Positions 1 through 35,062 of a stretch of 43,553 nucleotides of DNA are shown here, in pieces; position 1 is the first letter of the stretch, and each line of letters begins with the position of its first letter. This DNA is from Escherichia phage EP-B-K_E2. A program made the position numbers and the translations under genes. The notes under the pieces are model-generated. The model had not been told where the DNA came from and did not search any database. It was given only the letters and a program-made list of their open reading frames with translations. The DNA lies in sequence record OR992644.1; one strand, 5' to 3'.

Positions 1-1
1 C

Positions 2-364
2 ACAAACGGTGAAAATCTTGGTTTCGGTTTCTGTGCCGAAGTTGGGGGGTTTATAAACTGCGAACGGTCGCACGCCCTCGGAAATCAGGTAGCTGGGTTT
101 TACGCGCTTAGCAATGGGAGTATGTGGGCGCACGCGTGTGTATCTAACAACAATATAGGCCACGGCTTCTATGCCCTAAACGGGGGCGTGGTTGAAGGTA
201 ATGGGCTTAGTACCGCAGACGCAGATAGGTCCAACGCCTACAGTAATGGCGGATGGGGTTTTTACGCAGTAAATGGTGGGATAATGCAGGCGTGGAACTC
301 ATATTCAACCAATAATAGTCAGGGCACTTACGGGACCTCAAACGGTGGGATAATGCTTCCATAG
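2..364 (+). CDS. tailspike C-terminal segment (continuation of the CDS starting at 42150, across the circular junction)
   Basis: Frame of 42150 ORF continues through the 55-bp terminal overlap into frame 2 at window start; stop at 362-364; repeated GFYAxNGG beta-helix-like motifs. Confidence 0.65.
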   Translation, partial: TNGENLGFGFCAEVGGFINCERSHALGNQVAGFYALSNGSMWAHACVSNNNIGHGFYALNGGVVEGNGLSTADADRSNAYSNGGWGFYAVNGGIMQAWNSYSTNNSQGTYGTSNGGIMLP

Positions 365-2017: not shown

Positions 2018-2939
2018 TTACCGCCCCCATGAATGCCTTTATAAATTCAGCGGCTACTTGCGGGACGATGGCATTGCCATAACCGCGCAATCGTCCCACT
2101 CTGGCGGGTACCCCATTAGCCAGCGGGAATGTGCCGGGTTCAACTGGCCTGAATTTTCCATCCCGGCATCCGAGCCAGTCAGTATCTGACCAGAAGCCGT
2201 GATGCGGATTGGCCGCGATATTTTCAGTCCCTGCTCCGTTGAGTAGTCCAGCCTGCTGAATGTCCTGTCCTTCCCGTCCTTGCGAATAACTGTCTCTCCG
2301 CTCCCTCTGTAATCGTTCGCGGTCGGCGTCACCCATGCCGCCATCGCAGCGGCCCATCCCAGTTTGTTCGGTTTCGTCCTGCCGTCTGTGCTGCGCATGT
2401 TCACGTCGTTTGTTATCAGTGATACCGCCGGTGTGGGCCAGTCTGTGCGCGCCGAAGAACAGCCTGTCGCGTTTGTGCGGTGCGCCGACGCTACAAGCTG
2501 GGAGTACGGCAAACCCGACGGCGTAGTCTTCTCCTTCCAGGTGAGTTTGTAAATCGCACATCCACGATTTTGCAATTGCTGGCGCAACTTGTTCCCCAAA
2601 GATGACTGGAGGACGGCACTCGCTGATGAGGTCAAGGAAGACTGGAGCGAGGTGTCTCGGGTCGAACTGTCCGAGTTGTTTTCCTGCCGCGCTAAACGGT
2701 TGGCAAGGCGGGCTTCCCGTCCAGAGAGGCGTATCTTCCGAAACTCCCGCAAGTCTGAGCGCGAGAGACCAGCCGCCGATACCAGCGAAAAAATGACACT
2801 GGGTGAACCCGTCAAGGTCTTCTGGTCTAACTTCAGTAATGCTTCTTTCATCTACAACTCCAAAAGGTATGTGGCCCTGTTTTATCAACTCGCGCAGCCA
2901 CGCGGTTGCGCCTTTATCCCACTCGTTGTAATAGTTCAT
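2010..2939 (-). CDS. DNA (cytosine-5)-methyltransferase
   Basis: Motif I FFAGIGG, motif IV GSPPCQPFSAAGK (PCQ), motif VIII RDRLFFG, C-terminal GNAIVP. Confidence 0.75.
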   Translation of the reverse strand: MNYYNEWDKGATAWLRELIKQGHIPFGVVDERSITEVRPEDLDGFTQCHFFAGIGGWSLALRLAGVSEDTPLWTGSPPCQPFSAAGKQLGQFDPRHLAPVFLDLISECRPPVIFGEQVAPAIAKSWMCDLQTHLEGEDYAVGFAVLPACSVGAPHKRDRLFFGAHRLAHTGGITDNKRREHAQHRRQDETEQTGMGRCDGGMGDADRERLQRERRDSYSQGREGQDIQQAGLLNGAGTENIAANPHHGFWSDTDWLGCRDGKFRPVEPGTFPLANGVPARVGRLRGYGNAIVPQVAAEFIKAFMGAVNE

Positions 2940-3127
2940 TTTGCCACCAAAACTAGCTCTTTACGCCCGAACGCCGTAACGTTACCGGTTACATCTTCGA
3001 TAACCAGTTTACCGTTTGACTCGACGAACACAGTATCAACGGCAACAGGCTGGCGGGTCTTAACGTTGAAAATCATGTCGCCAGGTACGATGTCACGTGC
3101 TGGCTTGCGGTCATATTCGTGTTTCAT
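2936..3127 (-). CDS. hypothetical protein
   Basis: 63-aa ORF tightly coupled to upstream genes, promoter immediately upstream. Confidence 0.45.
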   Translation of the reverse strand: MKHEYDRKPARDIVPGDMIFNVKTRQPVAVDTVFVESNGKLVIEDVTGNVTAFGRKELVLVAK

Positions 3128-3157: not shown

Positions 3158-3445
3158 CTAACTATAATAGTTCGCTATTAGGTCGTCAACCTGTTTAAAC
3201 GAACCAACGACAAAAACATTTGCACCGCGTTTACGCATCCGCTCATGCTCACGTAACTGGTGCGGGTCAGGCTTCGTGTTTTCGTCTTTCTTAACCTCGA
3301 CGAACCAGACGATGCCGCCGGGGAGAATTACCAGCAGGTCAGGGGCGCCGGAGCGCCCCTCGTACGAAAGTTTACGAACGAGGCCGCCAATGGCCTCGAA
3401 TTGCTCTTTTGCGTATTTCTGTACGCGGCCCTCTTTAGTCGCCAT
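3158..3445 (-). CDS. VRR-NUC domain nuclease (PD-(D/E)XK)
   Basis: GAPDLLVILPGG...VEVK motif typical of VRR-NUC. Confidence 0.7.
   Translation of the reverse strand: MATKEGRVQKYAKEQFEAIGGLVRKLSYEGRSGAPDLLVILPGGIVWFVEVKKDENTKPDPHQLREHERMRKRGANVFVVGSFKQVDDLIANYYS
3161..3189 (-). promoter_or_regulatory. sigma70-like promoter TTGACG-N17-TATAGT with AATAG-N4-CTATT dyad
   Basis: Read on minus strand; same architecture as 7070-7098 and 9383-9411. Confidence 0.6.
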
Positions 3446-4135: not shown

Positions 4136-6316
4136 TTACTTAGCATAGCGCTTCATCTCCGCACCTTCCGCTACAAGAGGGAACCCCTCTGCCCACTCTG
4201 GTAATTCGCACATCAACCGTTCAAGCTCTGCGACATTGTATTCCGGTAAATCTGGCGTCTCGCAGATAATCTCATCGTGAACATGAAGCACAATTGGGTA
4301 GCCGTTTGCTTCGACGTTAAGCAGGGCATTAGCCAGCAAATCACGGCACAGCGCCTGAGTGCAGTTTTCCACCAGTTTACCGGAGTAGGTATACTGGAAG
4401 CCCCACTGCCTGGTTAACTGGTTTTCGCCCTGGTACTTGATGCGCACGTTAGTAGACACCTTCCCGTCTTCGTCTGTCTCTTTTGATACACTTAAACCAA
4501 CGCCCGGGTAAGACATAACGCGGCCCGACGGCAACGTCATGCGCAACCACCAGCCCGCGACTTTGTTGCCGTTGGTGTCTGTTTCTACGTTACGCGAAAA
4601 CTTAACGCCCCGCGGCCCTGCGGTGAACTCTTTACCTGGGTTGCGGATAGCCGCCATAGCTGCATCTTCAATATCTCGCCAGAAAGCTACTGTTTCCGGG
4701 TGAGACTCGCGCCACATGCGCTTGATAGCGTCACAGGTACGCCACACTTTCTTATCAAGAATATATGATGGTCGGTCATCCTTTTCACCTGGACGTGGTG
4801 GTCGCTTGGCTTCCTGAATACGCGCCCACTCATATCCACGTGCGGTAGCAGCCCAGATGTGGTCGGGGAAAGTCCCATCCATTGTTTTTGCCATATCAAC
4901 CAGGTCAAGGCCAAGGTTCTTGGCGAACTGTACGAATGCGCCGACGCCGCCCGCATAGCCAAGCCCAAGTTCGCAGGCCTTACCAATCTGGCGCAAATCT
5001 TTACGTTCTTTCTTAATGTAATCTGGGTCCATGCCGAACATCTTACCTGCGGTTACGCAGTAAATATCCAGTCCGGCGCGGAACGTATCTAGCGCGGTTT
5101 CTTCGCCTGCCAGCCACGCTAAACCACGGCCTTCGACGTTTGAGTAATCGGCGACGACAAACTTATGCCCCACTTCCGGTATGATGCAGCTACGTACCGT
5201 CGATGCCGTTAGCTTGGCTACATCAAAACGGCGGTGTGCCCGGCCTTTAAGTAACGCTGAAATGCCTTTATCCAATTCATCATCGTGATAGTACCCGCGC
5301 GCCAGGTTCTGCGGCTGGAAGCCTTTACCTGCAAACCGTAACGTACGCTTGGCCCCACCGTACTGGATGCAACCACGGCGTCGGTCGTCAGACGAGCGGC
5401 CCAACAGCAGCGGGTTATATTTCGTTGACGCGGTGGACGCGGCCCCGAGGCGCATTTCGATAATTGTGCGTGCGTCGTCCGGTAAATCATCGTCCGCCAG
5501 CAGGTCGTTAAGCGTCGACTTCTGTGCGTTGTGTATGCGGTGTGCAGGGGAGAGTTCACGAAGAATCGGCAGAAAGTCCTTACCAGTAAGCGAGCCGCCG
5601 TATTTGCGTTGGGCTTCCTCCTGTAACTGCGCTTTGTGTTTCTCCACGGCTTCAATAGCGGCTTCCGCCAGTGCAACGTCAACCTTAAACCCGCGGTCGT
5701 TGATTAACTGGTCCAGTTCCAGTACACGGTCTTCGAACTCAGAGTTACCCCAACGCGGCAGCTTATGGAAGACTTCACGCATCGCAGTGATGTCGCTCAC
5801 GGCGTACTTGATGAACAGCGCCCACTCGTCCGGGTGTGTTTCTGCGGTGTAGCGGCGGATTTTGTAATTCTTCGGTGTCGGTTTAGAGAAACGCTGAATC
5901 AGCGCCTTGCCGCGTTTATCTTTTGCATTGTCAGCAGACACGCCGAGCACTTCACACAGCGCATCAAGTGAACCCGGCAGCGCGTGACGAAACGCCCAAA
6001 TCATCGTATCAATGGTGTTGCTTACGGGAATATCAAAGCCCCAGCAGTGTTTCATGATGGGCCTATCGAAAAGTCCACCGTTGTGCCACACCATCTTAAT
6101 GCGGCTGTTTGGCTTCACCAGACGGCGCAGAGCACGGTGCAAATCTCCTGGCATGTCGCTGCCGTCAGTGCAATCCCATACACGTACTGGCTCGTCGTCA
6201 AAAGAGTATGTACAGATAAGCACTTCGGTTGACGGATGCTCGGCGTAAGCGTAAGAACCGACTTTCTTCAAATCGGCTTCGGAGAATGTTTCAAAGTCTA
6301 AGAACAGGTAACTCAT
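4136..6316 (-). CDS. family A DNA polymerase with 3'-5' exonuclease domain
   Basis: Exo motif LFLDFETFS; pol motif A DYSNVEGR, motif B RQIGKACELGLGYAGG, motif C VLHVHDEI. Confidence 0.85.
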   Translation of the reverse strand: MSYLFLDFETFSEADLKKVGSYAYAEHPSTEVLICTYSFDDEPVRVWDCTDGSDMPGDLHRALRRLVKPNSRIKMVWHNGGLFDRPIMKHCWGFDIPVSNTIDTMIWAFRHALPGSLDALCEVLGVSADNAKDKRGKALIQRFSKPTPKNYKIRRYTAETHPDEWALFIKYAVSDITAMREVFHKLPRWGNSEFEDRVLELDQLINDRGFKVDVALAEAAIEAVEKHKAQLQEEAQRKYGGSLTGKDFLPILRELSPAHRIHNAQKSTLNDLLADDDLPDDARTIIEMRLGAASTASTKYNPLLLGRSSDDRRRGCIQYGGAKRTLRFAGKGFQPQNLARGYYHDDELDKGISALLKGRAHRRFDVAKLTASTVRSCIIPEVGHKFVVADYSNVEGRGLAWLAGEETALDTFRAGLDIYCVTAGKMFGMDPDYIKKERKDLRQIGKACELGLGYAGGVGAFVQFAKNLGLDLVDMAKTMDGTFPDHIWAATARGYEWARIQEAKRPPRPGEKDDRPSYILDKKVWRTCDAIKRMWRESHPETVAFWRDIEDAAMAAIRNPGKEFTAGPRGVKFSRNVETDTNGNKVAGWWLRMTLPSGRVMSYPGVGLSVSKETDEDGKVSTNVRIKYQGENQLTRQWGFQYTYSGKLVENCTQALCRDLLANALLNVEANGYPIVLHVHDEIICETPDLPEYNVAELERLMCELPEWAEGFPLVAEGAEMKRYAK

Positions 6317-7002: not shown

Positions 7003-7069
7003 CTTGATTTCTCGCTTTTCAGTTTATATTTCAAAGTTTACTCCGGGAACTGCCCGGCCAGTGATTAGA

Positions 7070-7098
7070 ACTATAATAGCTAACTATTCAGGTGTCAA
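7070..7098 (-). promoter_or_regulatory. sigma70-like promoter TTGACA-N17-TATAGT with AATAG-N4-CTATT dyad
   Basis: Read on minus strand upstream of 6376-7002. Confidence 0.6.
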
Positions 7099-7360: not shown

Positions 7361-8583
7361 TCAGGACGTTTGTCGTCTGCCGTTGCGACACATGGTGCGC
7401 CCGGCTTACGGGTAATGAAGTCTTTCAGTTCTTCTTCCGGTATGACTTTAACAGCTTCGGTAGGCGTCATGAGCACTTCTTTAGTCAGCTTGTCGCCGTA
7501 GAGTTCTGTTACTTTCTCCGCGTCTTTCCACGCACGATTACCCGGGCGGCCTTCAACCAGTTTGTACCCTGGCACTTTCTTACCGGAATGCAACACGGCC
7601 GCCATCGCTTTCTCGACCTTATCGATGTGCTGGCGCAACAACGGCAACTTCTCATACTCGGCGACGAGTTGCTCCGGCGTTAGTTCTAGTGCAAAGTCGT
7701 CTTCAAGTTCTTCCGCCAGTACAGAATTAACCGTCTTTGTACGCGCGGCGCATTGTTCAGAGAACCTACACCACTGACAACCATCTACCGACGGCTTAAA
7801 GTCCGACGCTTTCAGGTTCTTCTTACCGCGGAAGTACGCATCTAGCGCTAACAGCGCGCGTTTCTGTGCGAACTTGGCGAACAGTTCCAGCCCTTCAACC
7901 GGGATGTCCCACTCCGACGCACCGCCAGCGTACGGCTGGAAGATAACCAGACGAACGGTTGTTATGTTATAACGTCTCTTAAGTCTGCGATAAACACCGA
8001 GAGCGTAAAGCATAAGCTGCTTGTTTTCTTTCGCTTCGACACGATGCCGCCCTGTTTTAAGGTCGCCGATAATGAGCATGTGCTCGTCGGTGTTTGTCAG
8101 TTCCTGAACGGCAACAAGGTCTGCGGTTCCGAACGTCTCAACGCCTTCATACCCCGGATGCAATACCTCAGTAAGATTTACGCGCATCTCCAGCTTAGCG
8201 AAAGTAGCCACGTCGATAATCGGTTTGCAGTAGTCGGTGTACTTGCGCACCTGCTCAATCATGTCCGCCGTAATCAGTACAGCGCCTTTCATAGGACTGA
8301 TTAGCGCCTTAATCTGGCCTTTGCCCTCATCCAGAACATAAGCACCGACTTCACGCTCTAACGGTAGCGCAGTTCCGCGAATATAAGCGTTGAGATGGAC
8401 CTCAGCTATAGTGTGGCACGCGGTCCCTGTAACGGCAGCTTTACCAGATGTGTTAGGAATATCTTTTTCACAGGCCAGTGATGCAGCACAACTCAGCCAC
8501 TTTTTAGCGCCTGACGGTGACAGTAAGGCATGTACATCATTATTGCCGCCGCGTTCTTTAAGAATCATACCCTGTTCTCCCAC
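7327..8583 (-). CDS. DUF2800-like PD-(D/E)XK nuclease (RecB/Cas4-like, Cys cluster)
   Basis: N-terminal HALLSPSGAKKW signature, C-terminal CQWCRF...C cysteine cluster. Confidence 0.6.
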   Translation of the reverse strand: MGEQGMILKERGGNNDVHALLSPSGAKKWLSCAASLACEKDIPNTSGKAAVTGTACHTIAEVHLNAYIRGTALPLEREVGAYVLDEGKGQIKALISPMKGAVLITADMIEQVRKYTDYCKPIIDVATFAKLEMRVNLTEVLHPGYEGVETFGTADLVAVQELTNTDEHMLIIGDLKTGRHRVEAKENKQLMLYALGVYRRLKRRYNITTVRLVIFQPYAGGASEWDIPVEGLELFAKFAQKRALLALDAYFRGKKNLKASDFKPSVDGCQWCRFSEQCAARTKTVNSVLAEELEDDFALELTPEQLVAEYEKLPLLRQHIDKVEKAMAAVLHSGKKVPGYKLVEGRPGNRAWKDAEKVTELYGDKLTKEVLMTPTEAVKVIPEEELKDFITRKPGAPCVATADDKRPEWNQVTEEDLE

Positions 8584-8837
8584 TGGTCAATTAAATGTCG
8601 CGTCTTGTGATGGCAATGCATAGCCCAGCCATACATCGACTCGAAGACATAAAAGTCAGGCTTGGCGAAAGTCGTACGCTTAATATGCGACACGTGGCGG
8701 CCTATGTCTTTAGGCCGTGGCACTTTGCCTAAGTACGCCATCTCTTCCATCTGGTGTGCACCGGACGGCGCGCGCAATAACCATAGCGCCTCTGTGTTAT
8801 CCCGCCTGTCAACGGCGCGGTATAGTTGGTAAATCAT
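8565..8837 (-). CDS. hypothetical protein
   Basis: 90-aa ORF in operon context. Confidence 0.4.
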   Translation of the reverse strand: MIYQLYRAVDRRDNTEALWLLRAPSGAHQMEEMAYLGKVPRPKDIGRHVSHIKRTTFAKPDFYVFESMYGWAMHCHHKTRHLIDQWENRV

Positions 8838-8880
8838 AATTCCGACCCTCAGTTAAAGCGGCCCGAAGGCCGCGGGATAG

Positions 8881-9351
8881 TTATTCTTCTTCAAAATACT
8901 TGTTCTTGATTGCTGTCAGGCGTTCCAGGTATTCGGCCAGGTCTTCGTCTTTAATCTCGGCAATCTTCATCTTCTTACCGGTGAACTCTTCCAGCAGTTC
9001 ATCGGAATCATCGCACGCGGCATCGCTAGGACCTTCGTTAATTGCGTCATCGATAGCCTGAATCTGGTCACGCAGAGACTGGTAATCGACTTCTTCTTTC
9101 TCTTCTTCCGGCTCTGGCGTCGGCTCCTCTACTTTAGCTTTACGCGGCTTGCGTTTCGGCTTCTCTTCTTCTGCAGGTTTAATGTCAACGACGTCTTCAC
9201 CTTCGACTGGGATTTCTTTTGTTGCTTCTTTCGCAACAGTGGTCTCGATTGTTGCGGTTTCAGCAACGACTACTTGTTTCACACTGTTCGCAGCAATCAG
9301 TTCATGTGCAACTACGAAACGTTCCAGTAATTTTAAGAATTGGTCTAACAT
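8881..9351 (-). CDS. hypothetical acidic protein
   Basis: 156 aa, Glu/Asp-rich, first gene downstream of promoter 9383-9411. Confidence 0.5.
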   Translation of the reverse strand: MLDQFLKLLERFVVAHELIAANSVKQVVVAETATIETTVAKEATKEIPVEGEDVVDIKPAEEEKPKRKPRKAKVEEPTPEPEEEKEEVDYQSLRDQIQAIDDAINEGPSDAACDDSDELLEEFTGKKMKIAEIKDEDLAEYLERLTAIKNKYFEEE

Positions 9352-9382: not shown

Positions 9383-9411
9383 ACTATAATAGCGAACTAT
9401 TCACATGTCAA
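9383..9411 (-). promoter_or_regulatory. sigma70-like promoter TTGACA-N17-TATAGT with AATAG-N4-CTATT dyad
   Basis: Read on minus strand; divergent from HTH gene at 9476. Confidence 0.6.
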
Positions 9412-9475
9412 TGGGCTTTTCTAAAATAATTAATATGGTACTATTCACATATCAACTAACTAAGGAGTAATTGAC

Positions 9476-9691
9476 ATGCAACCATCTGAACTAGGCATCC
9501 GTGTAGAACAACGCCGCAAAGAACTTGGAATCTCCCAGCGCCGTCTGGCTGTACTAACCGGCGTTTCCCAGGGTGCAATTAACCAGCTGGCCCTTGGGGT
9601 AACTCAGGATGTCCGCCCGGCAACGCTGTTTAAACTGGCGGAAGTGCTGCAAGTAGACGCCAAGTGGCTGGCGTTCGGTGAAGGGGCTTAA
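9476..9691 (+). CDS. XRE-family helix-turn-helix transcriptional regulator (Cro/CI-like)
   Basis: ISQRRLAVLTGVSQGAINQL HTH; SD taaggag 8 nt upstream; divergent from early promoter. Confidence 0.75.
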   Translation: MQPSELGIRVEQRRKELGISQRRLAVLTGVSQGAINQLALGVTQDVRPATLFKLAEVLQVDAKWLAFGEGA

Positions 9692-9708
9692 CGCCCCTTT
9701 CTTTTTAC

Positions 9709-11994
9709 CTATTCCAAATCCTCCTCTGTCACCACCAGCATTTCATTCGGTTCGTATATTGTCTTCGGTCTTAATCTGTCACCCATCTTTTCCGGTATCC
9801 GGTATGTGCCCGGCATAACTTCACCGTTAATATCACACCCAAGCATCAACTCCCCGTCTTTCAGCATCTTCTCAAGATGATGGTTGGTGATGGCGTGGTC
9901 ACCCGAGTTCGCTACTATCTGTCGTTGGGTAAAACCGCGTCCGGTGTCGTCAGACTGTTGCAGGTCTTCCAGCGCGGCGAGTATTGATTCCTTACGCCCT
10001 TCATCCTTCCCACGTTTCACAGCATTCTTTACGTTTTCTTTACCTTCCTTTGTCAGCCCTTCTTCCCGCTCCTTCTCCTCGTCAGTCTTGAACGGCTCGA
10101 ATCCCCACGGCATCAGCACAAGCGCCTTGTGCGGTTCCGGCAGGTCGAGGTTTACGATTGTGCCGTATTCCTCTGTGCTACCGAGGAACTCAACCGCACG
10201 GTACTCTTTCGGTGGTGGCGCTTCACGGAACTGTACCGACTCCAGCACCATGCCAACCGTCTTCTGTTGAGGCCCATGCTTAAATTTAGAGTGGTATACG
10301 TTTATCTGACGGTCAGTGGCGCGTTCGATTGTCAGTTCCACGTCGACGCCCGCATACAGCGCCCCACTACCGCGGGCTTTCTTTCCACCCTTCGGTGTAT
10401 GGTGGACGACGCCCACCGCGGCTTTAGTCGCATCACGTACTTCTTTCAGGATGGCGATAACTTTACCCATACCGATTGCCGTTGATGAGCTGTTCTCGTC
10501 GAACTTATCAATCGTCAGGGCCAGGGTCTGGTTAAGGGTGTCGAACGCGACCATGCCGATAGGTTCATCGCCCGCAGTTTCGCGCATTAACTTAATCAGG
10601 CTTTTAAGTTTGCCGACTTCGCCCATGTCGATGACGTGTACATAATCTTTACCCTCTGCGCCGTATTTAGCCGCGAGCGCGTCAATACGTGTACGTGTGG
10701 CTGCGCCCCCCTCACCGTCGATATAGAAGTGGTGGCAACGCTGGGTGTCAGCGCCTGCAAACCGGTATCCCGCCGCGCTAAGGTACATCATACCCAGCGT
10801 ATAGAATGATTTGTACGTGCCTGATTCCCCAACAATATCCCAGATACAATCCGACGGCATATACCCCTCAACGACGAAATCAGCCTTTACCGGTTCCGGT
10901 AACTCGTCCTCCTCTGAGTCCTCATCACCATCTTCCAGGTCGTCGAGGCTGCATGAGACATATTCACGTGCACCCCAGCCGATAGCCTCGGCGACTTCAC
11001 TGAATGGCAGCCCGGTCGCATCGCACGCGTATCTCCACACCTCTTTCGGCGACATGCCTTCGGTTGCCGTAATGTCGGTGTCGTGAATCATGGTTACGTT
11101 AGGCGCTTCGTAGCCCTCACGCGGGAAACACAGCAGGAAGTCATCCGGGCGAGGGGTCGGGTCGCTGTAGTTCTCTGCGTGTTCTGGTGTAGCTGGCATC
11201 TTAAGGCCGCGGGGCGTCATGATGCCGCCATACTCAAACGCCAGCGCCTCGAACGCGTCTGTAAACGCGGTGCGCAGTTCTTCCGGTATCTGGTAATCCG
11301 ATGCGCTGCTCACATCGTAATCCGGGATGCCTTCCAGTAACTCGTCCGGGTCAATCAGGTCGTTGCGACGCGACCAGATAACGGTAGAGCCGACCGGCGG
11401 CAGGTACATCGGCTGCGAAAGAGTGAACCCGCTGCGGTCCGCACCCATGCCTTTGAAGAAGTGCTCAAGCAATCCATGACGAACACGGATTATGTCACCA
11501 CCTTCAACCGGTCGGCCCAGGGGCATAACGACGCGAAAGCGCGGTGACTCATCGGTATGGGATGCCGTGGTATAGAGGCACATGGCCTGACGGCTGCGCT
11601 TAACCAGTCGCACCGCTTCCTGATACTCTTCCGGCGTTGTGCTGTCGAAGTCCAGATATGCCAGCGACGATTTGCTTACAGACGCGTCACAGCGATAAAA
11701 GAAGCCTTTACGCGCTTGCTTAAAGTCCCCGGTTTCCGGGTCTTTTACGGTGCTGTGTGTTGAGTCGCACGCGGCTGTGATATAGCCGGGCGCGGTCTTC
11801 GGGTTAACCCCATCACGAACAGCATCGAGCGGCCGGATTAACTCTTTCAGGTCGTCCAGTGTTGCCGTGTGTGTGGTTCTGACGTTTATATCCTTTTTCT
11901 CTGCTCGCGCGTTGCGACGAGACCACGAGTAGGATAAAATTACATCGGACATGTTGTATATTCCTTCAGCAAGTAATTTGGCCTCGGCGTTCAC
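9709..11994 (-). CDS. DNA primase / replicative helicase (primase domain plus RecA-like ATPase)
   Basis: 761 aa; Walker A-like VGESGTYKS in C-terminal half; size and position in replication module. Confidence 0.65.
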   Translation of the reverse strand: MNAEAKLLAEGIYNMSDVILSYSWSRRNARAEKKDINVRTTHTATLDDLKELIRPLDAVRDGVNPKTAPGYITAACDSTHSTVKDPETGDFKQARKGFFYRCDASVSKSSLAYLDFDSTTPEEYQEAVRLVKRSRQAMCLYTTASHTDESPRFRVVMPLGRPVEGGDIIRVRHGLLEHFFKGMGADRSGFTLSQPMYLPPVGSTVIWSRRNDLIDPDELLEGIPDYDVSSASDYQIPEELRTAFTDAFEALAFEYGGIMTPRGLKMPATPEHAENYSDPTPRPDDFLLCFPREGYEAPNVTMIHDTDITATEGMSPKEVWRYACDATGLPFSEVAEAIGWGAREYVSCSLDDLEDGDEDSEEDELPEPVKADFVVEGYMPSDCIWDIVGESGTYKSFYTLGMMYLSAAGYRFAGADTQRCHHFYIDGEGGAATRTRIDALAAKYGAEGKDYVHVIDMGEVGKLKSLIKLMRETAGDEPIGMVAFDTLNQTLALTIDKFDENSSSTAIGMGKVIAILKEVRDATKAAVGVVHHTPKGGKKARGSGALYAGVDVELTIERATDRQINVYHSKFKHGPQQKTVGMVLESVQFREAPPPKEYRAVEFLGSTEEYGTIVNLDLPEPHKALVLMPWGFEPFKTDEEKEREEGLTKEGKENVKNAVKRGKDEGRKESILAALEDLQQSDDTGRGFTQRQIVANSGDHAITNHHLEKMLKDGELMLGCDINGEVMPGTYRIPEKMGDRLRPKTIYEPNEMLVVTEEDLE

Positions 11995-12011: not shown

Positions 12012-12245
12012 TTATTCCAGGTCCTCTAAAGTAGCGGTCATTCCGCGAACTTCAGCAACGGCACTATATTTCCCGCCAACATTTTTCACGACACCGGATT
12101 TAACCAGCACCTTCAACGACCCTTCAATAACGGCGGAACTATAGTACTTAAAATAACTACGGCGCAAGTCCATAACGCTGCACGACCCTTTTTTACGTGT
12201 TAATGAGACGACCGCCGTAAATACGCGTGACTGGAACTCAGTCAT
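12012..12245 (-). CDS. hypothetical protein (possible winged-helix)
   Basis: 77-aa ORF coupled to 12242-12445. Confidence 0.4.
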   Translation of the reverse strand: MTEFQSRVFTAVVSLTRKKGSCSVMDLRRSYFKYYSSAVIEGSLKVLVKSGVVKNVGGKYSAVAEVRGMTATLEDLE

Positions 12246-12445
12246 TTCACGTTCTCCTTAATCCACGCTTCCACTTTCTCCCGGTCAAACGTACCTGGCT
12301 GCCGGCGGCCCATAATGCGAATACAACAATCCGGGAACTTCCCGCTCTTTAACCAGTTATTCAGCGTGCGACGAGTAACCCCGATACGCTCAGCTACTTC
12401 ATTCTGCGTCATTCTCAACCCCTCATTATCAGTTAACGGAACCAA
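12242..12445 (-). CDS. small HTH DNA-binding protein (AlpA/excisionase-like fold)
   Basis: MTQNEVAERIGVTRRTLNNWLKSGKFP HTH; first gene of minus-strand arm. Confidence 0.6.
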   Translation of the reverse strand: MVPLTDNEGLRMTQNEVAERIGVTRRTLNNWLKSGKFPDCCIRIMGRRQPGTFDREKVEAWIKENVK

Positions 12446-12843
12446 GTATACATTGCGAATAATGGGAAATCAAACATAATCGCACCTATTGACATTATGA
12501 AAATCTTCGTTTAAGGTGCTTCTATATCTTAGTTACTTTGATTCCTGTTCACCTTGTAAGAATGTTTAACCCGTGCGTCAAGCAAAGGGTTAAACACAGG
12601 CTTACTGAACACGAGAATTATCGTAACTTTCCTTCCTAAGTATCTCCGGTTGCCCTGGGCAAGCTCTATTCTCACCGGCAGCATATCTCTTAAGTATCTG
12701 ATTTTCTTAATGTGCCGTAGATTCGCAACCGTAAAAATGTAACGATTATCGGGCAGGCTTAAGGCCTGCCCTTTAGTTACCAAGTAATAAGAATAAAGGC
12801 ACAACCTTCCCTAAAGAATCACAACGGCAACGTAACTATTCTC

Positions 12844-12872
12844 TTGCACACCCCAACATAATAGGTTACTAT
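12844..12872 (+). promoter_or_regulatory. sigma70-like promoter TTGCAC-N17-TACTAT with AATAG-N4-CTATT dyad
   Basis: Nearly identical 35-bp element to 25844-25872 and 35034-35062 (opposite strand). Confidence 0.6.
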
Positions 12873-12907
12873 TCACTTATCGAAACGAGACAGAGGAGCG
12901 AGGGGTT

Positions 12908-14054: not shown

Positions 14055-14083
14055 TTGCACACTGGGATAGAATAGACTACTAT
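14055..14083 (+). promoter_or_regulatory. sigma70-like promoter TTGCAC-N17-TACTAT with AATAG-N4-CTATT dyad
   Basis: Upstream of 14114 gene. Confidence 0.6.
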
Positions 14084-14113
14084 TCATTTACACAGACGAT
14101 AGGAGAGACAGAG

Positions 14114-14332
14114 ATGTTCCTGGAATGCAAATCCTACGATGGTTACTGGGCGCTGGCTAAAAACGACCTGTACCACATCAAAGAAGACAGCGACGAGAGT
14201 CGATGCTACATAATAGACGACAACGGCACTGAACTTGACGTCTATTACACCGGGTATGGTCGATGGGCGTTATCCGCAGACGATGCCTTTGTGTTTGAAG
14301 AATATAACGGGGAGGAACCGGATGATGAGTAA
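14114..14332 (+). CDS. hypothetical acidic protein
   Basis: 72 aa, SD aggagag upstream. Confidence 0.5.
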   Translation: MFLECKSYDGYWALAKNDLYHIKEDSDESRCYIIDDNGTELDVYYTGYGRWALSADDAFVFEEYNGEEPDDE

Positions 14333-16964: not shown

Positions 16965-16986
16965 ATCTATTTTCTGCAATGACTAG

Positions 16987-17015
16987 TTGACTATTATCTA
17001 TGACCCTATTATATT
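16987..17015 (+). promoter_or_regulatory. sigma70-like promoter TTGACT-N17-TATATT
   Basis: Upstream of small-gene block beginning 17049; contains CTATT repeats. Confidence 0.55.
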
Positions 17016-17267: not shown

Positions 17268-17417
17268 ATGAAAATCACAGATATTGAAGCATTCGAAGAC
17301 GCACAACTGATGGCACGTATTGCCGTTAGTAACCTGGGTGGAAGCATTCCCGCGGATTCGTTCTGGGCAGCGGCGATGCAGGCACTTAAAGCAGCTTATG
17401 CAGGAGACAAGAAATGA
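17268..17417 (+). CDS. hypothetical small protein (49 aa, not in ORF track)
   Basis: MKITDIEAFEDAQL...KAAYAGDKK; truncated paralog at 17608. Confidence 0.35.
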   Translation: MKITDIEAFEDAQLMARIAVSNLGGSIPADSFWAAAMQALKAAYAGDKK

Positions 17418-17611: not shown

Positions 17612-17679
17612 AAACCACAGATACCGAAGCATTCAAAAACGAGCAACTGAAAGCAGCCTATGCAGGAGAGAAGAAATGA
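17608..17679 (+). pseudogene. internally deleted copy of the 17268-17417 gene (23 codons)
   Basis: MKTTDTEAFKNEQLKAAYAGEKK matches N- and C-termini of 17268 product. Confidence 0.3.
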
Positions 17680-18913: not shown

Positions 18914-19131
18914 GCAGAGTAGGTAAAGAGACATTGCGCCAACAGATAGACCGCCTGGCGTCTAAAGGTAGCCCAGAGTTAGGGCTTGGCATGACACTGA
19001 ACGAAGAGTTCCAGTTAGAGGCATATCGGATGTTACTGGCAAAACTTAGCACGTGCCGAAACTGTAACCATGAAACAACAGTAGAGGATATCGAATACAA
19101 TCAATGTGGTTTTTGCGGGTGTGATTTATGA
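18910..19131 (+). CDS. hypothetical protein with C-terminal zinc-ribbon-like Cys cluster (EFQLEAY motif family)
   Basis: CRNCNHE...CGFCGC; N-terminal motif paralogous to 18070 product. Confidence 0.45.
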   Translation: MSRVGKETLRQQIDRLASKGSPELGLGMTLNEEFQLEAYRMLLAKLSTCRNCNHETTVEDIEYNQCGFCGCDL

Positions 19132-19364
19132 TTACCAGCATTCCGAATCTGATTAAAGAATACGGCACGATGGCTGAGACATGCCGACAAACCGGCATCA
19201 ACGAAATGACGATTGCGAAGTACAGCAAAGACGTGAATTGTGAGCGCCATGTAATTTATAACAACCGTCTTATGACGCATGTTAAGACAAGCCCGGTGTT
19301 ATTCACGCGCCGGGGTATCACTAAAACCGAGCAACGTATTGCTAAAGAGGAGAGTGGGGAATGA
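19128..19364 (+). CDS. hypothetical protein, possible HTH
   Basis: MAETCRQTGINEMTIAKYS resembles an HTH. Confidence 0.4.
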   Translation: MITSIPNLIKEYGTMAETCRQTGINEMTIAKYSKDVNCERHVIYNNRLMTHVKTSPVLFTRRGITKTEQRIAKEESGE

Positions 19365-25500: not shown

Positions 25501-25529
25501 AGGCCCTGAAAGGGCCTTATTTTTTTTTA
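25501..25529 (+). terminator. rho-independent terminator
   Basis: aggccct-gaa-agggcct followed by 9 T. Confidence 0.7.
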
Positions 25530-25808
25530 TACAAATACGAATCCATCGCTGGTAGAGGTGTATCGGGTGGCGCCGTTTTTCGTTTCAGGCCAACAGATAT
25601 ATGAGCGACCATGATACTCTATCCACCAAAGTTCTACATCGGCACCTTCATTAGGTCGCGTCAACCACCCGTGGTGCAGCCAATACTTGCGCCCTATTTT
25701 AAATATGCCTTCTTCGCCTGAAGGCCTGCAACAGGCGACGCACTCTACTTGAATACCATCAACCTGCACACATGTCATATGTAAATTACTGTTTGAGTAT
25801 TTAGCCAT
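25527..25808 (-). CDS. reverse-oriented orphan gene, Cys-rich hypothetical protein
   Basis: 93-aa ORF with own promoter (25844-25872) and SD aaggaa; opposite to flanking structural genes. Confidence 0.55.
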   Translation of the reverse strand: MAKYSNSNLHMTCVQVDGIQVECVACCRPSGEEGIFKIGRKYWLHHGWLTRPNEGADVELWWIEYHGRSYICWPETKNGATRYTSTSDGFVFV

Positions 25809-25843
25809 TTCTAAATTCCTTATCTCTCGTTTCGATGTAATGA

Positions 25844-25872
25844 ATAGTACCCTATTATGCTGGTGTGTGCAA
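25844..25872 (-). promoter_or_regulatory. sigma70-like promoter TTGCAC-N17-TACTAT with dyad (minus strand)
   Basis: Near-identical to 12844-12872 element. Confidence 0.6.
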
Positions 25873-25926: not shown

Positions 25927-25967
25927 CTATTCGAATAGTTGACTTTTCACTAAAAATGTGATAAGCT
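25927..25967 (+). promoter_or_regulatory. palindrome CTATTCGAATAG abutting a TTGACT -35 and extended -10-like TGaTAAGCT
   Basis: Perfect 12-bp palindrome at 25927-25938; promoter-like spacing 17. Confidence 0.45.
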
Positions 25968-26578: not shown

Positions 26579-26690
26579 CGACGCCGACGAGGATTTGGCT
26601 ATCGACGTTCAGAACGCCGAATGTGCACGGCAACTGAGACTGAAAGTGTTCATGCTGCAGGACTGGGTACGGAATGTGATGGCGGAATAA
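26424..26690 (+). CDS. o-spanin (Rz1-like outer-membrane lipoprotein), GTG start
   Basis: Signal peptide with lipobox LASC, Pro-rich mature region, overlapped architecture with i-spanin. Confidence 0.6.
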   Translation: MKSLSTLKRLAAACALSTMLASCSSPAPSPTPIPSPDTTMMQPPCKLAAPSSDADEDLAIDVQNAECARQLRLKVFMLQDWVRNVMAE

Positions 26691-26691
26691 G

Positions 26692-26715
26692 AAAAGCCCC
26701 TTATGGGGCTTTGTT
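26692..26715. terminator. bidirectional rho-independent terminator
   Basis: aagcccc-ttat-ggggctt flanked by A-run upstream and T-rich downstream. Confidence 0.55.
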
Positions 26716-26718
26716 GCG

Positions 26719-26883
26719 TTAAAAGTTTCCGTATACAAAATTACGTTTTCTGGTTCTCAATGGGACCCATGCAGGTATGTTATCATTGTGGACGAAATGT
26801 TCCTCATAGAAGAAAACCTTTTTGGTATTGCTGGACCAATGGTCCATTTTTAAAATTCTTCTTGCTTTTGCGTTTCTGGTCAT
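26719..26883 (-). CDS. reverse-oriented small ORF (54 aa, not in ORF track)
   Basis: Strong SD acaggaggg 7 nt upstream of ATG; convergent with spanins; shares bidirectional terminator. Confidence 0.4.
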   Translation of the reverse strand: MTRNAKARRILKMDHWSSNTKKVFFYEEHFVHNDNIPAWVPLRTRKRNFVYGNF

Positions 26884-26910
26884 TCTTATGCCCTCCTGTT
26901 TAAGTTACCT

Positions 26911-26932
26911 CCTATAATAGCACCCTATTATA
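26911..26932. promoter_or_regulatory. AATAG-N4-CTATT dyad element with TATAAT/TATTAT boxes (strand ambiguous)
   Basis: ctataatagcaccctattatat matches the dyad family at 25844 and 35034. Confidence 0.45.
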
Positions 26933-27033
26933 TTGGTGTCTATAGGGGTGGTTGCCTTCTGATGTGGAATAATTTATTCTTGACATGTAAATCCGGGTGG
27001 CCCGGGTTCCAACGTCCAGGGGACATACTGACT

Positions 27034-33195: not shown

Positions 33196-33226
33196 ACTAA
33201 GGCCCCTTTCGGGGCCTTTTTTTTCT
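33196..33226. terminator. bidirectional rho-independent terminator
   Basis: aaggcccc-tttc-ggggcctt with A-run upstream and 8 T downstream. Confidence 0.7.
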
Positions 33227-33456
33227 TACTCGTCAATATTGCTTCGATACTCCCGTAACTTCTCCAGACTTTCAATTGCTTCCGCTAAGTCTGTTCCGGT
33301 GTCCTTGTGCCCGCGCAAGCCCATACACAATAGCTTCTTCAATGCATGCTGTAACGCCGGGTCGCGGATGTCGAAGGCGCGTAGCACATCATAAACGTCT
33401 ACTGTCATAGTGCTGCCGTGAGTGTTTGTCATGGTGCGGTTGTATTTATTTGTCAC
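33226..33456 (-). CDS. DUF3310-like small protein
   Basis: DVYDVLRAF...ALKKLLCMGLRGHKD...LAEAIESLEKL resembles DUF3310 signature. Confidence 0.45.
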   Translation of the reverse strand: MTNKYNRTMTNTHGSTMTVDVYDVLRAFDIRDPALQHALKKLLCMGLRGHKDTGTDLAEAIESLEKLREYRSNIDE

Positions 33457-33642
33457 TGTTAACTCTCTTAAATCGGGCTATGCCTGACTCGTTAATGTTG
33501 CCTATTTCAAAGAAGCTGCGATATTTAGGCTAATACATTCTTACGTCGCCATTCTCTAGGGTTATTCCTTCATATACAGCACCTACTTAGAACCCATTTT
33601 TCTCTGCGTACGGACTCACATCGGTGCATTCATACATGTCTC

Positions 33643-34773: not shown

Positions 34774-34811
34774 GCTTACTTCCTCGTGTTTAGGATTTGT
34801 CTTATAGTAGC

Positions 34812-35003: not shown

Positions 35004-35033
35004 TTTAAACCCCTTCATTGTTGGTGTAAGTGA

Positions 35034-35062
35034 ATAGTACCCTATTATATTGGGGTACGCAA
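35034..35062 (-). promoter_or_regulatory. sigma70-like promoter TTGCGT-N17-TACTAT with dyad (minus strand)
   Basis: Near-identical to 12844-12872 and 25844-25872 elements. Confidence 0.6.

What the first reader, a model, noticed from the sequence alone, without database searches (positions are those of the whole stretch)
3161..3189. Genome-wide AATAG-N4-CTATT dyad embedded in two fixed promoter architectures
At least nine intergenic sites carry the dyad AATAG-N4-CTATT (3167-3180, 7076-7089, 9389-9402, 12859-12872, 14070-14083, 25844-25857, 26917-26930, 35034-35047, and a one-mismatch copy at 9432-9445), plus an inverted-order palindrome CTATTCGAATAG at 25927-25938. They occur in two rigid contexts. 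Minus-strand early promoters read TTGAC(A/G)-N17-TATAGT with the dyad in the spacer (3161-3189, 7070-7098, 9383-9411). A second class reads TTGC(A/G)(C/T)-N17-TACTAT with the dyad overlapping the -10 (12844-12872, 14055-14083, 25844-25872 minus, 35034-35062 minus). Three of the second class share about 35 bp of near-identical sequence including the spacer, which is more conservation than sigma70 recognition requires. A 10-specified-base pattern is expected far less than once by chance in 43 kb. This implies a single phage-encoded DNA-binding protein, or a modified RNA polymerase specificity, coordinating both early arms and the reverse-oriented morons.
Basis: seen in the sequence. Interest (0 to 1): 0.7.

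Follow-up and report, generated by a model that had tools for sequence, protein, structure and literature searches.

The report
Cro-like repressor operator at phage promoters
A 14-bp palindrome sitting inside nearly all strong promoters of this lytic E. coli phage (a Kagunavirus) is most likely the binding site of the phage's own small 434-Cro-like repressor. The motif was already published, mislabelled as a "phage RNA polymerase promoter", so this is a sensible re-reading of a known kind of system rather than a new one.

Summary
AATAG-N4-CTATT occurs 8 times exactly (0.03 expected) and 11 times with up to one mismatch (1.17 expected). Every copy lies in a promoter region.

The window is a complete Kagunavirus genome (Guernseyvirinae, obligately lytic). 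The four best sigma-70 promoter matches in the genome all overlap a dyad.

The dyad is not a fixed promoter element. Its position relative to the -35 box differs within this genome and in relatives: N4, N10 and N7 spacings, and copies directly over the -35.

At orthologous promoters its sequence changes by lineage:
- Kagunavirus and Jerseyvirus: AATAG/CTATT
- Pantoea phage AH01: AATAC/GTATT
- Cornellvirus-like phages: ATTAG/GTAWT
- Dhillonvirus and YeP4: none

Only one recognisable DNA-binding protein follows this distribution: the 71-aa HTH_3 protein at 9476-9691. Its closest solved relative by sequence and by fold is phage 434 Cro, which binds 14-bp operators. Its own promoter is bracketed by two dyads.

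An unrelated GC-rich CI/Cro immunity region with similar recognition helices carries three AATAC-N4-GTATT dyads.

Best reading: a dispersed operator set for a Cro-like repressor that occludes promoters. Binding is inferred, not shown. The motif was previously reported by PHIRE as a "phage RNAP promoter", which is not supported.

The parts
3166..3179 (.). Operator dyad AATAGTTCGCTATT in the spacer of minus-strand promoter 3161-3189 (TTGACG-17-TATAGT). It drives 2936-3127, the methyltransferase and the helicase.
   Evidence: 14.2 bits
7075..7088 (.). Operator dyad AATAGCTAACTATT in the spacer of minus-strand promoter 7070-7098 (TTGACA-17-TATAGT). It lies upstream of the Gp2.5-like SSB gene and the DNA polymerase gene.
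   Evidence: 15.5 bits; orthologous promoter compared across lineages
9388..9401 (.). Operator O1, AATAGCGAACTATT. It lies in the spacer of leftward promoter 9383-9411 and abuts or overlaps the -35 box (TTCACA, 9400-9405) of the rightward promoter of the HTH_3 gene.
9432..9445 (.). Operator O2 (one mismatch), AATATGGTACTATT. It lies at about +1 of the HTH_3 promoter. It is part of a tandem copy (9431-9455, 84% identical) of the 9387-9411 promoter-operator unit.
   Evidence: D3
9400..9427 (+). Predicted promoter of the HTH_3 gene (TTCACA-16-TAAAAT), bracketed by O1 and O2.
   Evidence: 11.4 bits
9476..9691 (+). 71-aa HTH_3 (Xre / 434-Cro-like) protein, the proposed dyad-binding repressor. It is a monocistronic unit that ends in terminator hairpin 9680-9700.
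   Evidence: Pfam HTH_3 48.2 bits. Best PDB sequence hit is 434 Cro, E 1.9e-6, full length. AF2 model of five helices, pLDDT 81. Best Foldseek hit 2cro, TM 0.73/0.79, 39% identity. Phyletic pattern.
12860..12873 (.). Operator dyad AATAGGTTACTATT overlapping the -10 box of rightward early promoter 12844-12872 (TTGCAC-17-TACTAT). A leftward sigma-70 match of similar score shares the dyad.
14071..14084 (.). Operator dyad AATAGACTACTATT at plus-strand promoter 14055-14083, upstream of 14114-14332.
16982..16995 (.). One-mismatch dyad ACTAGTTGACTATT over the -35 box of strong plus-strand promoter 16987-17015 (TTGACT-17-TATATT). The promoter follows the lysis-cassette terminator and precedes the small genes, terminase and head genes.
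   Evidence: 14.2 bits. The imperfect form is kept in Bas73. In Jerseyvirus the mismatch is in the other arm.
25843..25856 (.). Operator dyad AATAGTACCCTATT in the divergent region between minus-strand moron 25527-25808 and the plus-strand late genes. The minus-strand promoter is 25844-25872. A plus-strand match is TTTCGA-17-TATTAT.
   Evidence: homology with Bas73 breaks exactly here
25927..25947 (.). CTATTCGAATAG palindrome plus one-mismatch dyad AATAGTTGACTTTT over the -35 box of plus-strand promoter 25939-25967 (TTGACT-17-TAAGCT).
   Evidence: 10.8 bits; conserved in Bas73
26916..26929 (.). Operator dyad AATAGCACCCTATT between the 54-aa minus-strand moron (26719-26883) and the scaffold gene (26962). 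The minus-strand promoter is 26914-26942 (TAGACA-17-TATTAT), with its -10 box at dyad positions 11-16.
   Evidence: 11.0 bits. It lies in a roughly 275-bp insertion relative to Bas73.
35033..35046 (.). Operator dyad AATAGTACCCTATT shared by a divergent promoter pair. The minus-strand promoter 35034-35062 faces the superinfection-immunity moron. The plus-strand match TTGGTG-16-TATTAT (35021-35048) faces the tail-chaperone and tail operon.
   Evidence: (Imm_superinfect). The orthologous site in PVP-SE2 is a symmetric TTGCAT-N7-dyad-N7-CGTCAA. The orthologous AH01 site is shown.

Best explanation
The dyad is a 14-bp operator with two 5-bp arms and a free 4-bp centre. It is bound by a dimer of the phage's own 71-aa HTH_3 protein (9476-9691), a 434-Cro-like repressor.

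The operator lies inside core promoters: in the -35/-10 spacer, across the -10 box, or over the -35 box. A bound dimer should therefore exclude sigma-70 RNA polymerase.

The protein would be made early from its own promoter, which is bracketed by O1 and O2, and would limit its own synthesis. As it accumulates it would turn down the replication-arm promoters, the rightward early promoter, and the divergent moron / structural-operon promoters.

The phage has no CI repressor and no integrase, so this is the Cro half of a lambdoid-type switch, used as a genome-wide throttle in an obligately lytic phage.

Shown here:
- the motif, its statistics and its placement in promoters;
- the lineage-specific variants;
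- the family and fold of the protein, and its co-distribution with the dyad.

Inferred:
- that this protein binds the dyad;
- that binding represses;
- the timing of its action.
For: 1. The dyad is real and confined to promoters. There are 8 exact copies against 0.03 expected. The four sigma-70 matches scoring at least 14 bits in the whole genome (0.35 expected) all overlap a dyad.

2. It behaves as an independent element, not as part of the promoter.
- The arms are kept while the 4-bp centre and the rest of the spacer vary at an orthologous promoter.
- Its register relative to the -35 box is N4 or N10 here, N7 at 26916 and in Jerseyvirus, and N5 in one Kagunavirus. At 16982 and 25934 it lies over the -35 box.

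3. The variants are lineage-specific and concerted across orthologous promoters.
- AATAG/CTATT: 8, 7, 3 and 4 copies in two Kagunavirus and two Jerseyvirus genomes.
- AATAC/GTATT: 5 copies in Pantoea phage AH01.
- ATTAG/GTAWT: 5 copies in Cornellvirus-like phage sp9.
- Each variant has zero copies in the other lineages. There are no copies in Dhillonvirus EP23 or YeP4.
- Jerseyvirus and Cornellvirus both infect Salmonella, which argues for a phage-encoded factor.

4. HTH_3 is the only recognisable DNA-binding protein present in every dyad-bearing lineage and absent from EP23 and YeP4. HTH_17 and p77 are missing from sp9 and AH01. The NinH-like protein is missing from AH01.

5. HTH_3 is 434-Cro-like by sequence and by fold. 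From my own knowledge, 434 Cro and P22 c2 bind two-fold symmetric operators with non-contacted central bases; the 434 operator is 14 bp.

6. The HTH_3 gene occupies the cro position. It is divergent from the leftward replication operon. In Cornellvirus, AH01 and Scapp it is followed directly by the primase-helicase gene. Two dyads bracket its promoter.

7. Independent association. The IMG/VR contig L068 (62% GC) has a divergent CI(S24)/Cro pair with helix-3 sequences VSQGTIGHIESG and LSQGAISHIETG. The corresponding helices are MTQGGIGHIVTG in AH01 and VSQGAINQLALG in the window. L068 carries three exact AATAC-N4-GTATT dyads (0.002 expected). One lies between the two genes.

8. Helices 2 and 3 are invariant among HTH_3 variants that are only 77-80% identical overall.
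Against: - There are no binding, footprint or transcript-start data for any Guernseyvirinae phage in the searchable literature.
- The recognition helix does not covary simply with the half-site. Jerseyvirus (VSQSLITHLATG) shares the Kagunavirus dyad, yet its helix looks more like that of Cornellvirus (VTQSAISHLCCG), which has a different dyad.
- AH01 and sp9 could carry non-orthologous small DNA-binding proteins that I did not detect. AH01_5 is annotated as a DNA-binding protein.
- The arms are -10-like. Flank plus arm gives TATAAT or TATTAT, so part of the conservation at divergent sites could reflect paired -10 boxes.
- Operators also face the tail and scaffold operons. A simple early shut-off model does not explain that.
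- The class-2 promoters share far more sequence (37 nt at 89%) than an operator plus sigma-70 boxes would need.
Confidence: 0.55

Rival explanations
1. The dyad is an operator, but for a different phage protein. Candidates are the 56-aa HTH_17/Xis-like protein (12242-12412, minus strand), the neighbouring 77-aa protein, the NinH-like 78-aa protein (19128-19364), or an unrecognised small protein.
For: The dyad behaves as an operator. HTH_17 scores 33.3 bits to Pfam HTH_17, and the 78-aa protein weakly matches NinH. HTH_17 is 80% conserved between Kagunavirus and Jerseyvirus, which share the same dyad. The HTH_3 helix does not covary cleanly with the half-site.
Against: HTH_17 and p77 are undetectable in sp9, Shemara and AH01, and the NinH-like protein is undetectable in AH01. 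All of these genomes carry 5 or more dyads. The HTH_17 operon promoter (12445-12473) has no dyad. Xis/MerR-type HTH_17 proteins are not known for 14-bp 5-4-5 operators (my own knowledge). L068 links the dyad to HTH_3-type repressors.
Confidence: 0.15
2. No dedicated binding protein. The repeat reflects descent and gene conversion of mobile promoter cassettes. Its symmetry comes from paired, divergent -10-like hexamers (TATTAT / TATAAT) in bidirectional sigma-70 promoters.
For: - Four dyad sites (12860, 25843, 26916, 35033) lie between divergent genes. Their sigma-70 scores are 8.0, 8.0, 11.0 and 8.0 in one direction, against 7.5, 7.2, 7.3 and 8.3 in the other.
- The PVP-SE2 site 27267 is a symmetric TTGCAT-N7-dyad-N7-CGTCAA.
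- Flank plus arm spells TATAAT.
- The class-2 units are 37 nt long and 89% identical.
- Homology breakpoints with Bas73 fall at the dyads, and a moron-plus-promoter insertion carries one.
Against: - Class-1 sites lie within a co-directional minus-strand gene run, with opposite-direction scores of only about 2 to 8.6 bits. Both arms are nevertheless kept in the spacer across genera, while the centre and the other spacer bases drift.
- The changes are concerted and lineage-specific: G to C at position 5, A to T at position 2, mirrored in the other arm. That does not fit -10 function alone.
- L068 has the same dyad in a classical immunity region.
Confidence: 0.12
3. A host (E. coli or Salmonella) transcription factor or nucleoid protein binds the dyad, and the phage exploits it.
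For: The motif is AT-rich and promoter-associated. Kagunavirus (E. coli) and Jerseyvirus (Salmonella) share it.
Against: Jerseyvirus and Cornellvirus both infect Salmonella but use different dyads. The same dyad type appears beside HTH_3 repressors in a 62% GC contig that is not enterobacterial. I know of no enterobacterial factor with this consensus (my own knowledge; not tested).
Confidence: 0.06
4. The motif is a promoter for a phage-encoded or phage-modified RNA polymerase. This is the PHIRE label used in the fBC-Eco01 paper and the reader's second option.
For: PHIRE lists the same 20-mers as "phage RNAP promoters" with consensus tgAATAGTa-ccTATTat-T (PMC9825357). The class-2 units are conserved over about 35 bp, as phage-RNAP promoters are.
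Against: - No RNAP or sigma gene is annotated in Bas73, PVP-SE2, Shemara or AH01.
- The only ORFs of 700 aa or more are the polymerase, primase-helicase, tape-measure and tail proteins.
- The motif is two-fold symmetric and occurs at several registers and in both orientations relative to genes.
- It sits inside near-consensus sigma-70 promoters.
Confidence: 0.03

Closest known systems
Phage 434 Cro / 434 repressor and their 14-bp operators; also P22 c2/Cro (lambdoid immunity regions)
   Same: - The 71-aa protein aligns over its full length with 434 Cro (E 1.9e-6, 39% identity). The predicted five-helix fold matches 2cro, 3cro, 1pra and P22 c2.
- The operator is 14 bp and two-fold symmetric, with conserved outer bases and a free centre.
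- The gene is in the cro position, with operators bracketing its own promoter and a divergent promoter.
- The glutamine at the start of helix 3 is invariant. From my own knowledge, it is the residue that contacts the outermost adenine in 434.
   Different: - There is no CI partner, no integrase and no lysogeny.
- Operators number 8-11 and are spread over the whole genome, including late and moron promoters, rather than clustered at OR and OL.
- The half-site is AATAG, not ACAA.
- Binding has not been shown.
Dispersed-operator phage repressor regulons: P1 C1 operators, phiC31 c repressor CIR sites, mycobacteriophage L5 gp71 stoperators (named from my own knowledge; not tested here)
   Same: One small phage repressor with many copies of a short conserved site scattered through the genome at or near promoters.
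   Different: Those repressors maintain lysogeny in temperate phages. The P1 and L5 sites are asymmetric, and the L5 sites act on elongation. Here the phage is virulent, and the sites are symmetric and lie inside core promoters.
PHIRE-predicted "phage promoters" of Kagunavirus fBC-Eco01 (PMC9825357)
   Same: It is the same sequence element. PP1-PP7 are TGAATAGTACCCTATTATAT, TGAATAGTACCATATTAATT, TGAATAGTAGTCTATTCTAT and so on.
   Different: That paper assigns them to a phage-encoded RNA polymerase, which these phages do not have. It proposes no operator or regulator.
Mobile promoter cassettes such as the PeSL early-promoter stem-loops of T4-type phages (my own knowledge)
   Same: Near-identical promoter units flank small accessory genes. 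Mosaic breakpoints coincide with them.
   Different: The repeated unit here carries an operator-like dyad, not a stem-loop. Mobility is inferred from a single genome comparison.

Membership tests
HTH_3 / Xre (434 Cro, lambda-repressor-like) DNA-binding proteins | Sequence match to the HTH_3 profile above the curated cut-off | tested here: met
   PF01381, 48.2 bits against a cut-off of 23. PHROG transcriptional repressor families also match.
HTH_3 / Xre (434 Cro, lambda-repressor-like) DNA-binding proteins | Five-helix globular fold superimposable on 434 Cro or the repressor N-terminal domain | tested here: met
   The AF2 model has five helices (H5-17, 21-28, 32-39, 48-57, 62-66) and pLDDT 81. 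The top Foldseek hit is 2cro, TM 0.73/0.79.
Cro-type repressor-operator system | Two-fold symmetric operator of about 14-18 bp with conserved arms and a variable centre, repeated at regulated promoters | tested here: met
   AATAG-N4-CTATT, 8 exact copies. The centres are all different, while the arms are kept across genera.
Cro-type repressor-operator system | Operators overlap the regulator's own promoter and a divergent early promoter | tested here: met
   O1 (9388-9401) and O2 (9432-9445) bracket P9400-9427. O1 lies in the spacer of P9383-9411.
Cro-type repressor-operator system | The protein binds the operator as a dimer and represses transcription | not testable with these tools
   Only co-distribution and the L068 association bear on this.
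Lambdoid bistable CI/Cro switch | A CI-type maintenance repressor and an integration module are present | tested here: not met
   No S24-domain repressor or integrase appears in the window ORFs or in the annotated relatives. All large-database homologues of HTH_3 are 45-84 aa, and those on long contigs sit on contigs of about 28-45 kb. The temperate relative YeP4 has both a repressor and an integrase, but no dyads.
Phage-RNA-polymerase promoters (PHIRE label) | The phage encodes its own RNA polymerase or sigma factor | tested here: not met
   No such gene is annotated in four relatives. No unassigned ORF is large enough.
Phage-RNA-polymerase promoters (PHIRE label) | An asymmetric element in one fixed orientation and at a fixed distance from the start site | tested here: not met
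   The element is a palindrome. It occurs at four registers relative to the sigma-70 boxes and in both orientations relative to genes.
Sigma-70 promoters | -35 and -10 hexamers separated by 16-18 bp, scoring above background | tested here: met
   Class 1 and P16987 score 14.2-15.5 bits, above the 99.9th percentile of background (12.0). Only 0.35 such sites are expected per genome. Class 2 scores only 8.0 bits, at about the 98th-99th percentile.
Symmetry-driven bidirectional promoters | Divergent -10 hexamers overlapping within about 7 bp, giving start sites about 18 bp apart (geometry recalled from my own knowledge) | tested here: inconclusive
   At the N7-type sites the two -10 boxes lie at opposite ends of the 14-bp dyad, which implies start sites about 30 bp apart. 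That geometry differs. No transcript-start data are available.

The most novel reading that the evidence does not exclude
An entire subfamily of obligately lytic phages (Guernseyvirinae) has kept only the Cro half of an ancestral temperate switch. It has spread the Cro operator to essentially every strong promoter, early, late and moron alike.

Part of the spread would be through mobile promoter-operator-moron cassettes that recombine at the dyads.

Graded operator quality would then set the order of shut-off. Perfect dyads sit at the replication and moron promoters. The promoter upstream of the packaging and head genes keeps a conserved single mismatch, placed in opposite arms in Kagunavirus and Jerseyvirus.

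Repressor and operators would co-evolve as a lineage-specific code: AATAG, AATAC or ATTAG.
Probability: 0.25. Interest if true: 0.55.

Novelty: new member of a known kind. Interest (0 to 1): 0.36.

Why it matters
Kagunavirus and Jerseyvirus phages are common therapy and biocontrol candidates. According to the BASEL-collection preprint, they are also being taken up as small chassis for phage engineering.

Their gene regulation is uncharacterised, and the one published description of this motif assigns it to a polymerase the phage does not have.

If the 71-aa protein is a global promoter throttle:
- it gives a handle on the timing of the lytic programme;
- it provides a set of matched promoter-operator parts with lineage-specific orthogonal variants;
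- it offers a route by which a cell expressing a repressor of the same specificity could blunt infection by a "virulent" phage.

As biology, it is an extension of the Cro/operator paradigm, not a new principle.

Tried and rejected
- **Phage RNAP or sigma promoter.** Rejected: no such gene exists, and the element is symmetric with a variable register.
- **HTH_17 (12242-12445) as the binder.** Rejected as the best candidate because it is absent from sp9, Shemara and AH01. I also found that its real start is probably the ATG at 12412 (56 aa) and that its own promoter (12445-12473) lacks a dyad.
- **NinH-like protein as the binder.** It is absent from AH01.
- **A residue-to-base recognition code across five HTH_3 lineages.** No clean covariation emerged.
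- **Dyads beside 13 more distant HTH_3 homologues in IMG/VR loci.** Only L068 has them.
- **Information-content logos from sites selected by the pattern.** These are circular for the arms. I replaced them with a comparison of an orthologous promoter anchored on a downstream conserved sequence.
- **CI-type long homologues of HTH_3 in the 5.8-billion-protein database.** None found; only close phage copies turned up.
- **Rfam scan of the window.** No hits.
- **Literature searches for transcript mapping or regulator work in Guernseyvirinae.** Nothing found.
- **A 5' stem-loop after P7075.** Its fold is not better than shuffled sequence, z = 0.27.
Full report
**What the window is**

The first 14.4 kb is 100% identical to Escherichia phage EP-M-A. 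The rest of the first 20 kb is about 91% identical to NTEC3, the K1ind phages and Bas73. Bases 1-55 repeat exactly at 43499-43553 (D4). The window is therefore a complete genome of about 43.5 kb from a Kagunavirus (Guernseyvirinae), a group regarded as strictly lytic.

Gene order follows Bas73:
- a minus-strand replication arm, from about 12.4 kb down to 0.4 kb;
- a plus-strand arm of small early genes and the lysis cassette (12.9-16.9 kb);
- plus-strand packaging, head and tail genes, interrupted by three short minus-strand inserts (25527-25808, 26719-26883, 33226-35018).

**The observation**

AATAG-N4-CTATT has 8 exact copies against 0.03 expected, and 11 copies with up to one mismatch against 1.17 expected.
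The promoter spans are right.
- All eleven copies lie in promoter regions.
- The 3166 copy overlaps the last codons of ORF 3158-3445, so it is not strictly intergenic.
- An unbiased repeat search puts these promoter units among the top repeat families. It confirms a 37-nt, 89% match between 12843-12879 and 35027-35063 (alignment).

**Relation to sigma-70 promoters**

I scored promoters with a simple position-weight model of the -35 box, the spacer and the -10 box.
- Only four sites in the genome reach 14 bits (0.35 expected): 9383-9411, 7070-7098, 3161-3189 and 16987-17015. All four overlap a dyad or its one-mismatch form.
- In the three minus-strand "class 1" promoters the dyad fills the spacer (TTGACR-N4-dyad, then ATAGT).
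- In "class 2" (TTGCAC-N10-dyad) the -10 box TACTAT lies inside the dyad, and the score is a modest 8.0 bits.
- At 26916 the best promoter is TAGACA-17-TATTAT, with the -10 box at dyad positions 11-16.
- At 16982 and 25934 the dyad-like sequence covers a TTGACT -35 box.

Relatives add further spacings. Jerseyvirus PVP-SE2 has an N7 arrangement, including a perfectly symmetric TTGCAT-N7-dyad-N7-CGTCAA. One Kagunavirus has an N5 variant. The dyad is thus a separable unit placed at several positions within core promoters. That is what an operator looks like, and what an RNA polymerase recognition element does not.

Four dyad sites (12860, 25843, 26916, 35033) lie between divergent genes. Their sigma-70 scores in the two directions are of similar order, and -35-like hexamers are kept on both sides in AH01 and PVP-SE2. 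They are probably shared operators of bidirectional promoter pairs, some facing the scaffold/capsid and tail operons.

**Conservation pattern**

I anchored on a conserved sequence downstream of the SSB-gene promoter and read the upstream promoter in about 30 distinct relatives.
- Within Kagunavirus and Jerseyvirus the -35 box, the arms and the -10 box are largely kept, with occasional single-base arm changes.
- The four central bases (TTAG, CGAG, CAAA, TTGG, TAGA, TACT and others) and the four bases between the -35 box and the dyad drift.
- Other lineages carry variant arms.

The arms differ by lineage, and they do so concertedly at orthologous promoters:

| Lineage | Dyad | Exact copies |
|---|---|---|
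| Two Kagunavirus, two Jerseyvirus genomes | AATAG/CTATT | 8, 7, 3, 4 |
| Pantoea phage AH01 | AATAC/GTATT | 5 |
| Cornellvirus-like sp9 | ATTAG/GTAWT | 5 |
| Dhillonvirus EP23 (polymerase 65% identical) | none | 0 |
| Temperate relative YeP4 | none | 0 |

Each variant has zero copies in the other lineages. Jerseyvirus and Cornellvirus share a host genus, so a host factor is unlikely. A co-evolving phage protein is the economical explanation.

**Which protein**

The window has three or four small candidate DNA-binding proteins.

| Candidate | Distribution | Source |
|---|---|---|
| 71-aa HTH_3 protein (9476-9691) | in all dyad-bearing lineages at 39-51% identity; absent from EP23 and YeP4 | |
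| HTH_17 and its 77-aa neighbour | Kagunavirus and Jerseyvirus only | |
| NinH-like protein | missing from AH01 | |

A whole-proteome comparison found no other recognisable DNA-binding protein with the same distribution as HTH_3.

Features of the HTH_3 protein:
- Its best solved relative is phage 434 Cro, itself 71 aa (E 1.9e-6, full length).
- A single-sequence AlphaFold2 model (pLDDT 81, five helices) has 2cro as its top structural match.
- The gene is a self-contained unit of promoter, gene and terminator in the cro position. In Cornellvirus, AH01 and Scapp it is followed directly by the primase-helicase gene, as cro is followed by replication genes in lambdoid phages.
- Its predicted promoter (TTCACA-16-TAAAAT, 9400-9427) has O1 on its -35 box and O2 at its start site.
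- Helices 2 and 3 are invariant among natural variants that are only 77-80% identical overall.

An independent line comes from IMG/VR contig L068 (62% GC), which was retrieved through a different HTH gene.
- It contains a divergent pair of a CI-like (S24) repressor and a Cro-like protein.
- Their recognition helices resemble those of AH01.
- It has three exact AATAC-N4-GTATT dyads (0.002 expected). One lies between the two genes and two lie in the next promoter.

**Mechanism proposed**

A dimer of the Cro-like protein binds the 14-bp operator and blocks RNA polymerase. It limits its own synthesis and turns down most of the phage's strong promoters as it accumulates.

Repression is inferred from position: the dyad centres lie between about -33 and -12. 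Binding itself is inferred from co-distribution. No experimental data exist in the searchable literature.

Weak points:
- There is no clean code linking helix residues to half-site bases.
- The arms resemble -10 boxes.
- Operators face late operons.
- The conservation of the class-2 units exceeds what an operator and sigma-70 boxes require.

That excess conservation is probably due to cassette mobility. Homology with Bas73 breaks exactly at the 25843 dyad. The 26916 dyad lies in a roughly 275-bp moron insertion, and its leader matches a Bas73 gene located elsewhere.

**Prior knowledge and novelty**

The fBC-Eco01 genome paper lists the same 20-mers as seven PHIRE "phage RNAP promoters", with consensus tgAATAGTa-ccTATTat-T (PMC9825357). 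The motif is therefore already in print, with an interpretation these data do not support.

The operator/Cro reading, the lineage-specific variants and the link to the 71-aa protein appear to be unpublished. They extend a classical paradigm. I rate this a new member of a known kind, of moderate interest.

Noticed in passing
window 12474-12843 (+ strand RNA candidate 12524-12782): A conserved non-coding stretch lies between the two early arms.
- The ORF 12529-12804 (-) is split by frameshifts in Jerseyvirus.
- On the + strand a TTGACA-17-TAAGGT promoter match (12489-12517, 12.0 bits) precedes a roughly 260-nt region that ends in terminator-like hairpin 12751-12771.
- That region folds far better than shuffled sequence (-78.3 against -55.5 kcal/mol, z = -5.2).
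- In 13 relatives many conserved G-U pairs favour the + strand. Three pairs show compensatory changes, and a hypervariable 5' hairpin appears to keep its stem by eye; the alignment-based fold did not pair it.
- There is no Rfam match.

This is a candidate phage ncRNA, or a structured origin or leader.
   Followed up: partly
window 12445-12517: A back-to-back divergent promoter pair without any dyad. TTGATT-17-TATACT (minus strand, 12.4 bits) drives the HTH_17 / p77 / primase-helicase operon. TTGACA-17-TAAGGT (plus strand) drives the candidate RNA. This part of the early programme appears to escape the dyad system. The HTH_17 gene most likely starts at the ATG at 12412 (56 aa), not the TTG at 12445.
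   Followed up: partly
window 1-55 and 43499-43553: An exact 55-bp direct repeat at the two ends of the window. The record is a complete genome with an assembly or terminal overlap, so the true length is about 43,498 bp (D4).
   Followed up: no
window 25841 and 26676-26950, against L001 (Bas73) 5140-6004: Mosaic junctions coincide with the dyads. Homology to Bas73 starts exactly at the 25843 dyad, with a different minus-strand moron on the other side. Window 26676-26950 (the 54-aa minus-strand gene plus its dyad promoter) is an insertion relative to Bas73, and its leader matches the Bas73 moron at 5140-5183. This suggests recombination at, or mobility of, promoter-operator-moron cassettes.
   Followed up: partly
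window 7020-7064 (- strand), downstream of P7070-7098: The 5' leader sequence ATCACTGGCCGGGCAG..CCCGGAGT of the Gp2.5-like SSB gene is conserved across Kagunavirus, Jerseyvirus, Cornellvirus-like and L046 lineages, while the promoter spacer drifts. Its small CCGGG/CCCGG hairpin is not thermodynamically unusual, z = 0.27. It may be a translational or stability signal.
   Followed up: partly
window 16982-16995; L002 (PVP-SE2) 1537-1550: The strong promoter after the lysis cassette always carries an imperfect dyad over its -35 box. In Kagunavirus the mismatch is in the left arm (ACTAG-TTGA-CTATT). In Jerseyvirus it is at the mirror position of the right arm (AATAG-TTGA-CTAGT in promoter orientation). 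A deliberately weakened operator at the promoter upstream of the packaging and head genes is a possibility.
   Followed up: no
L068 8174-9240 (IMGVR_UViG_2636415719_000003): A GC-rich contig (62% GC) carries a classical divergent pair: a Cro-like protein (8174-8374, minus strand) and a CI-S24 repressor (about 8470-9150, plus strand). It has three exact AATAC-N4-GTATT dyads at 8409, 9195 and 9220 (0.002 expected). This is the same dyad type as in Pantoea phage AH01.
   Followed up: partly
L053 about 9780-9930; also L002, L004, L009, L010, L046: The sequence TGCAAGCACTTTA next to the cro-proximal operator is conserved across Jerseyvirus, Cornellvirus, AH01 and the L046 and L053 lineages, but is replaced in the window. 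In L053 it forms a longer palindrome, AAAGTGCT-ATGCA-AGCACTTT. Its function is unknown. It may be a second regulatory site.
   Followed up: no
window 17384-17417 and 17646-17679: A 34-nt direct repeat (91% identical), ACTTAAAGCAGCTTATGCAGGAGACAAGAAATGA. It spans a ribosome-binding site and start codon at two neighbouring small genes (D1).
   Followed up: no
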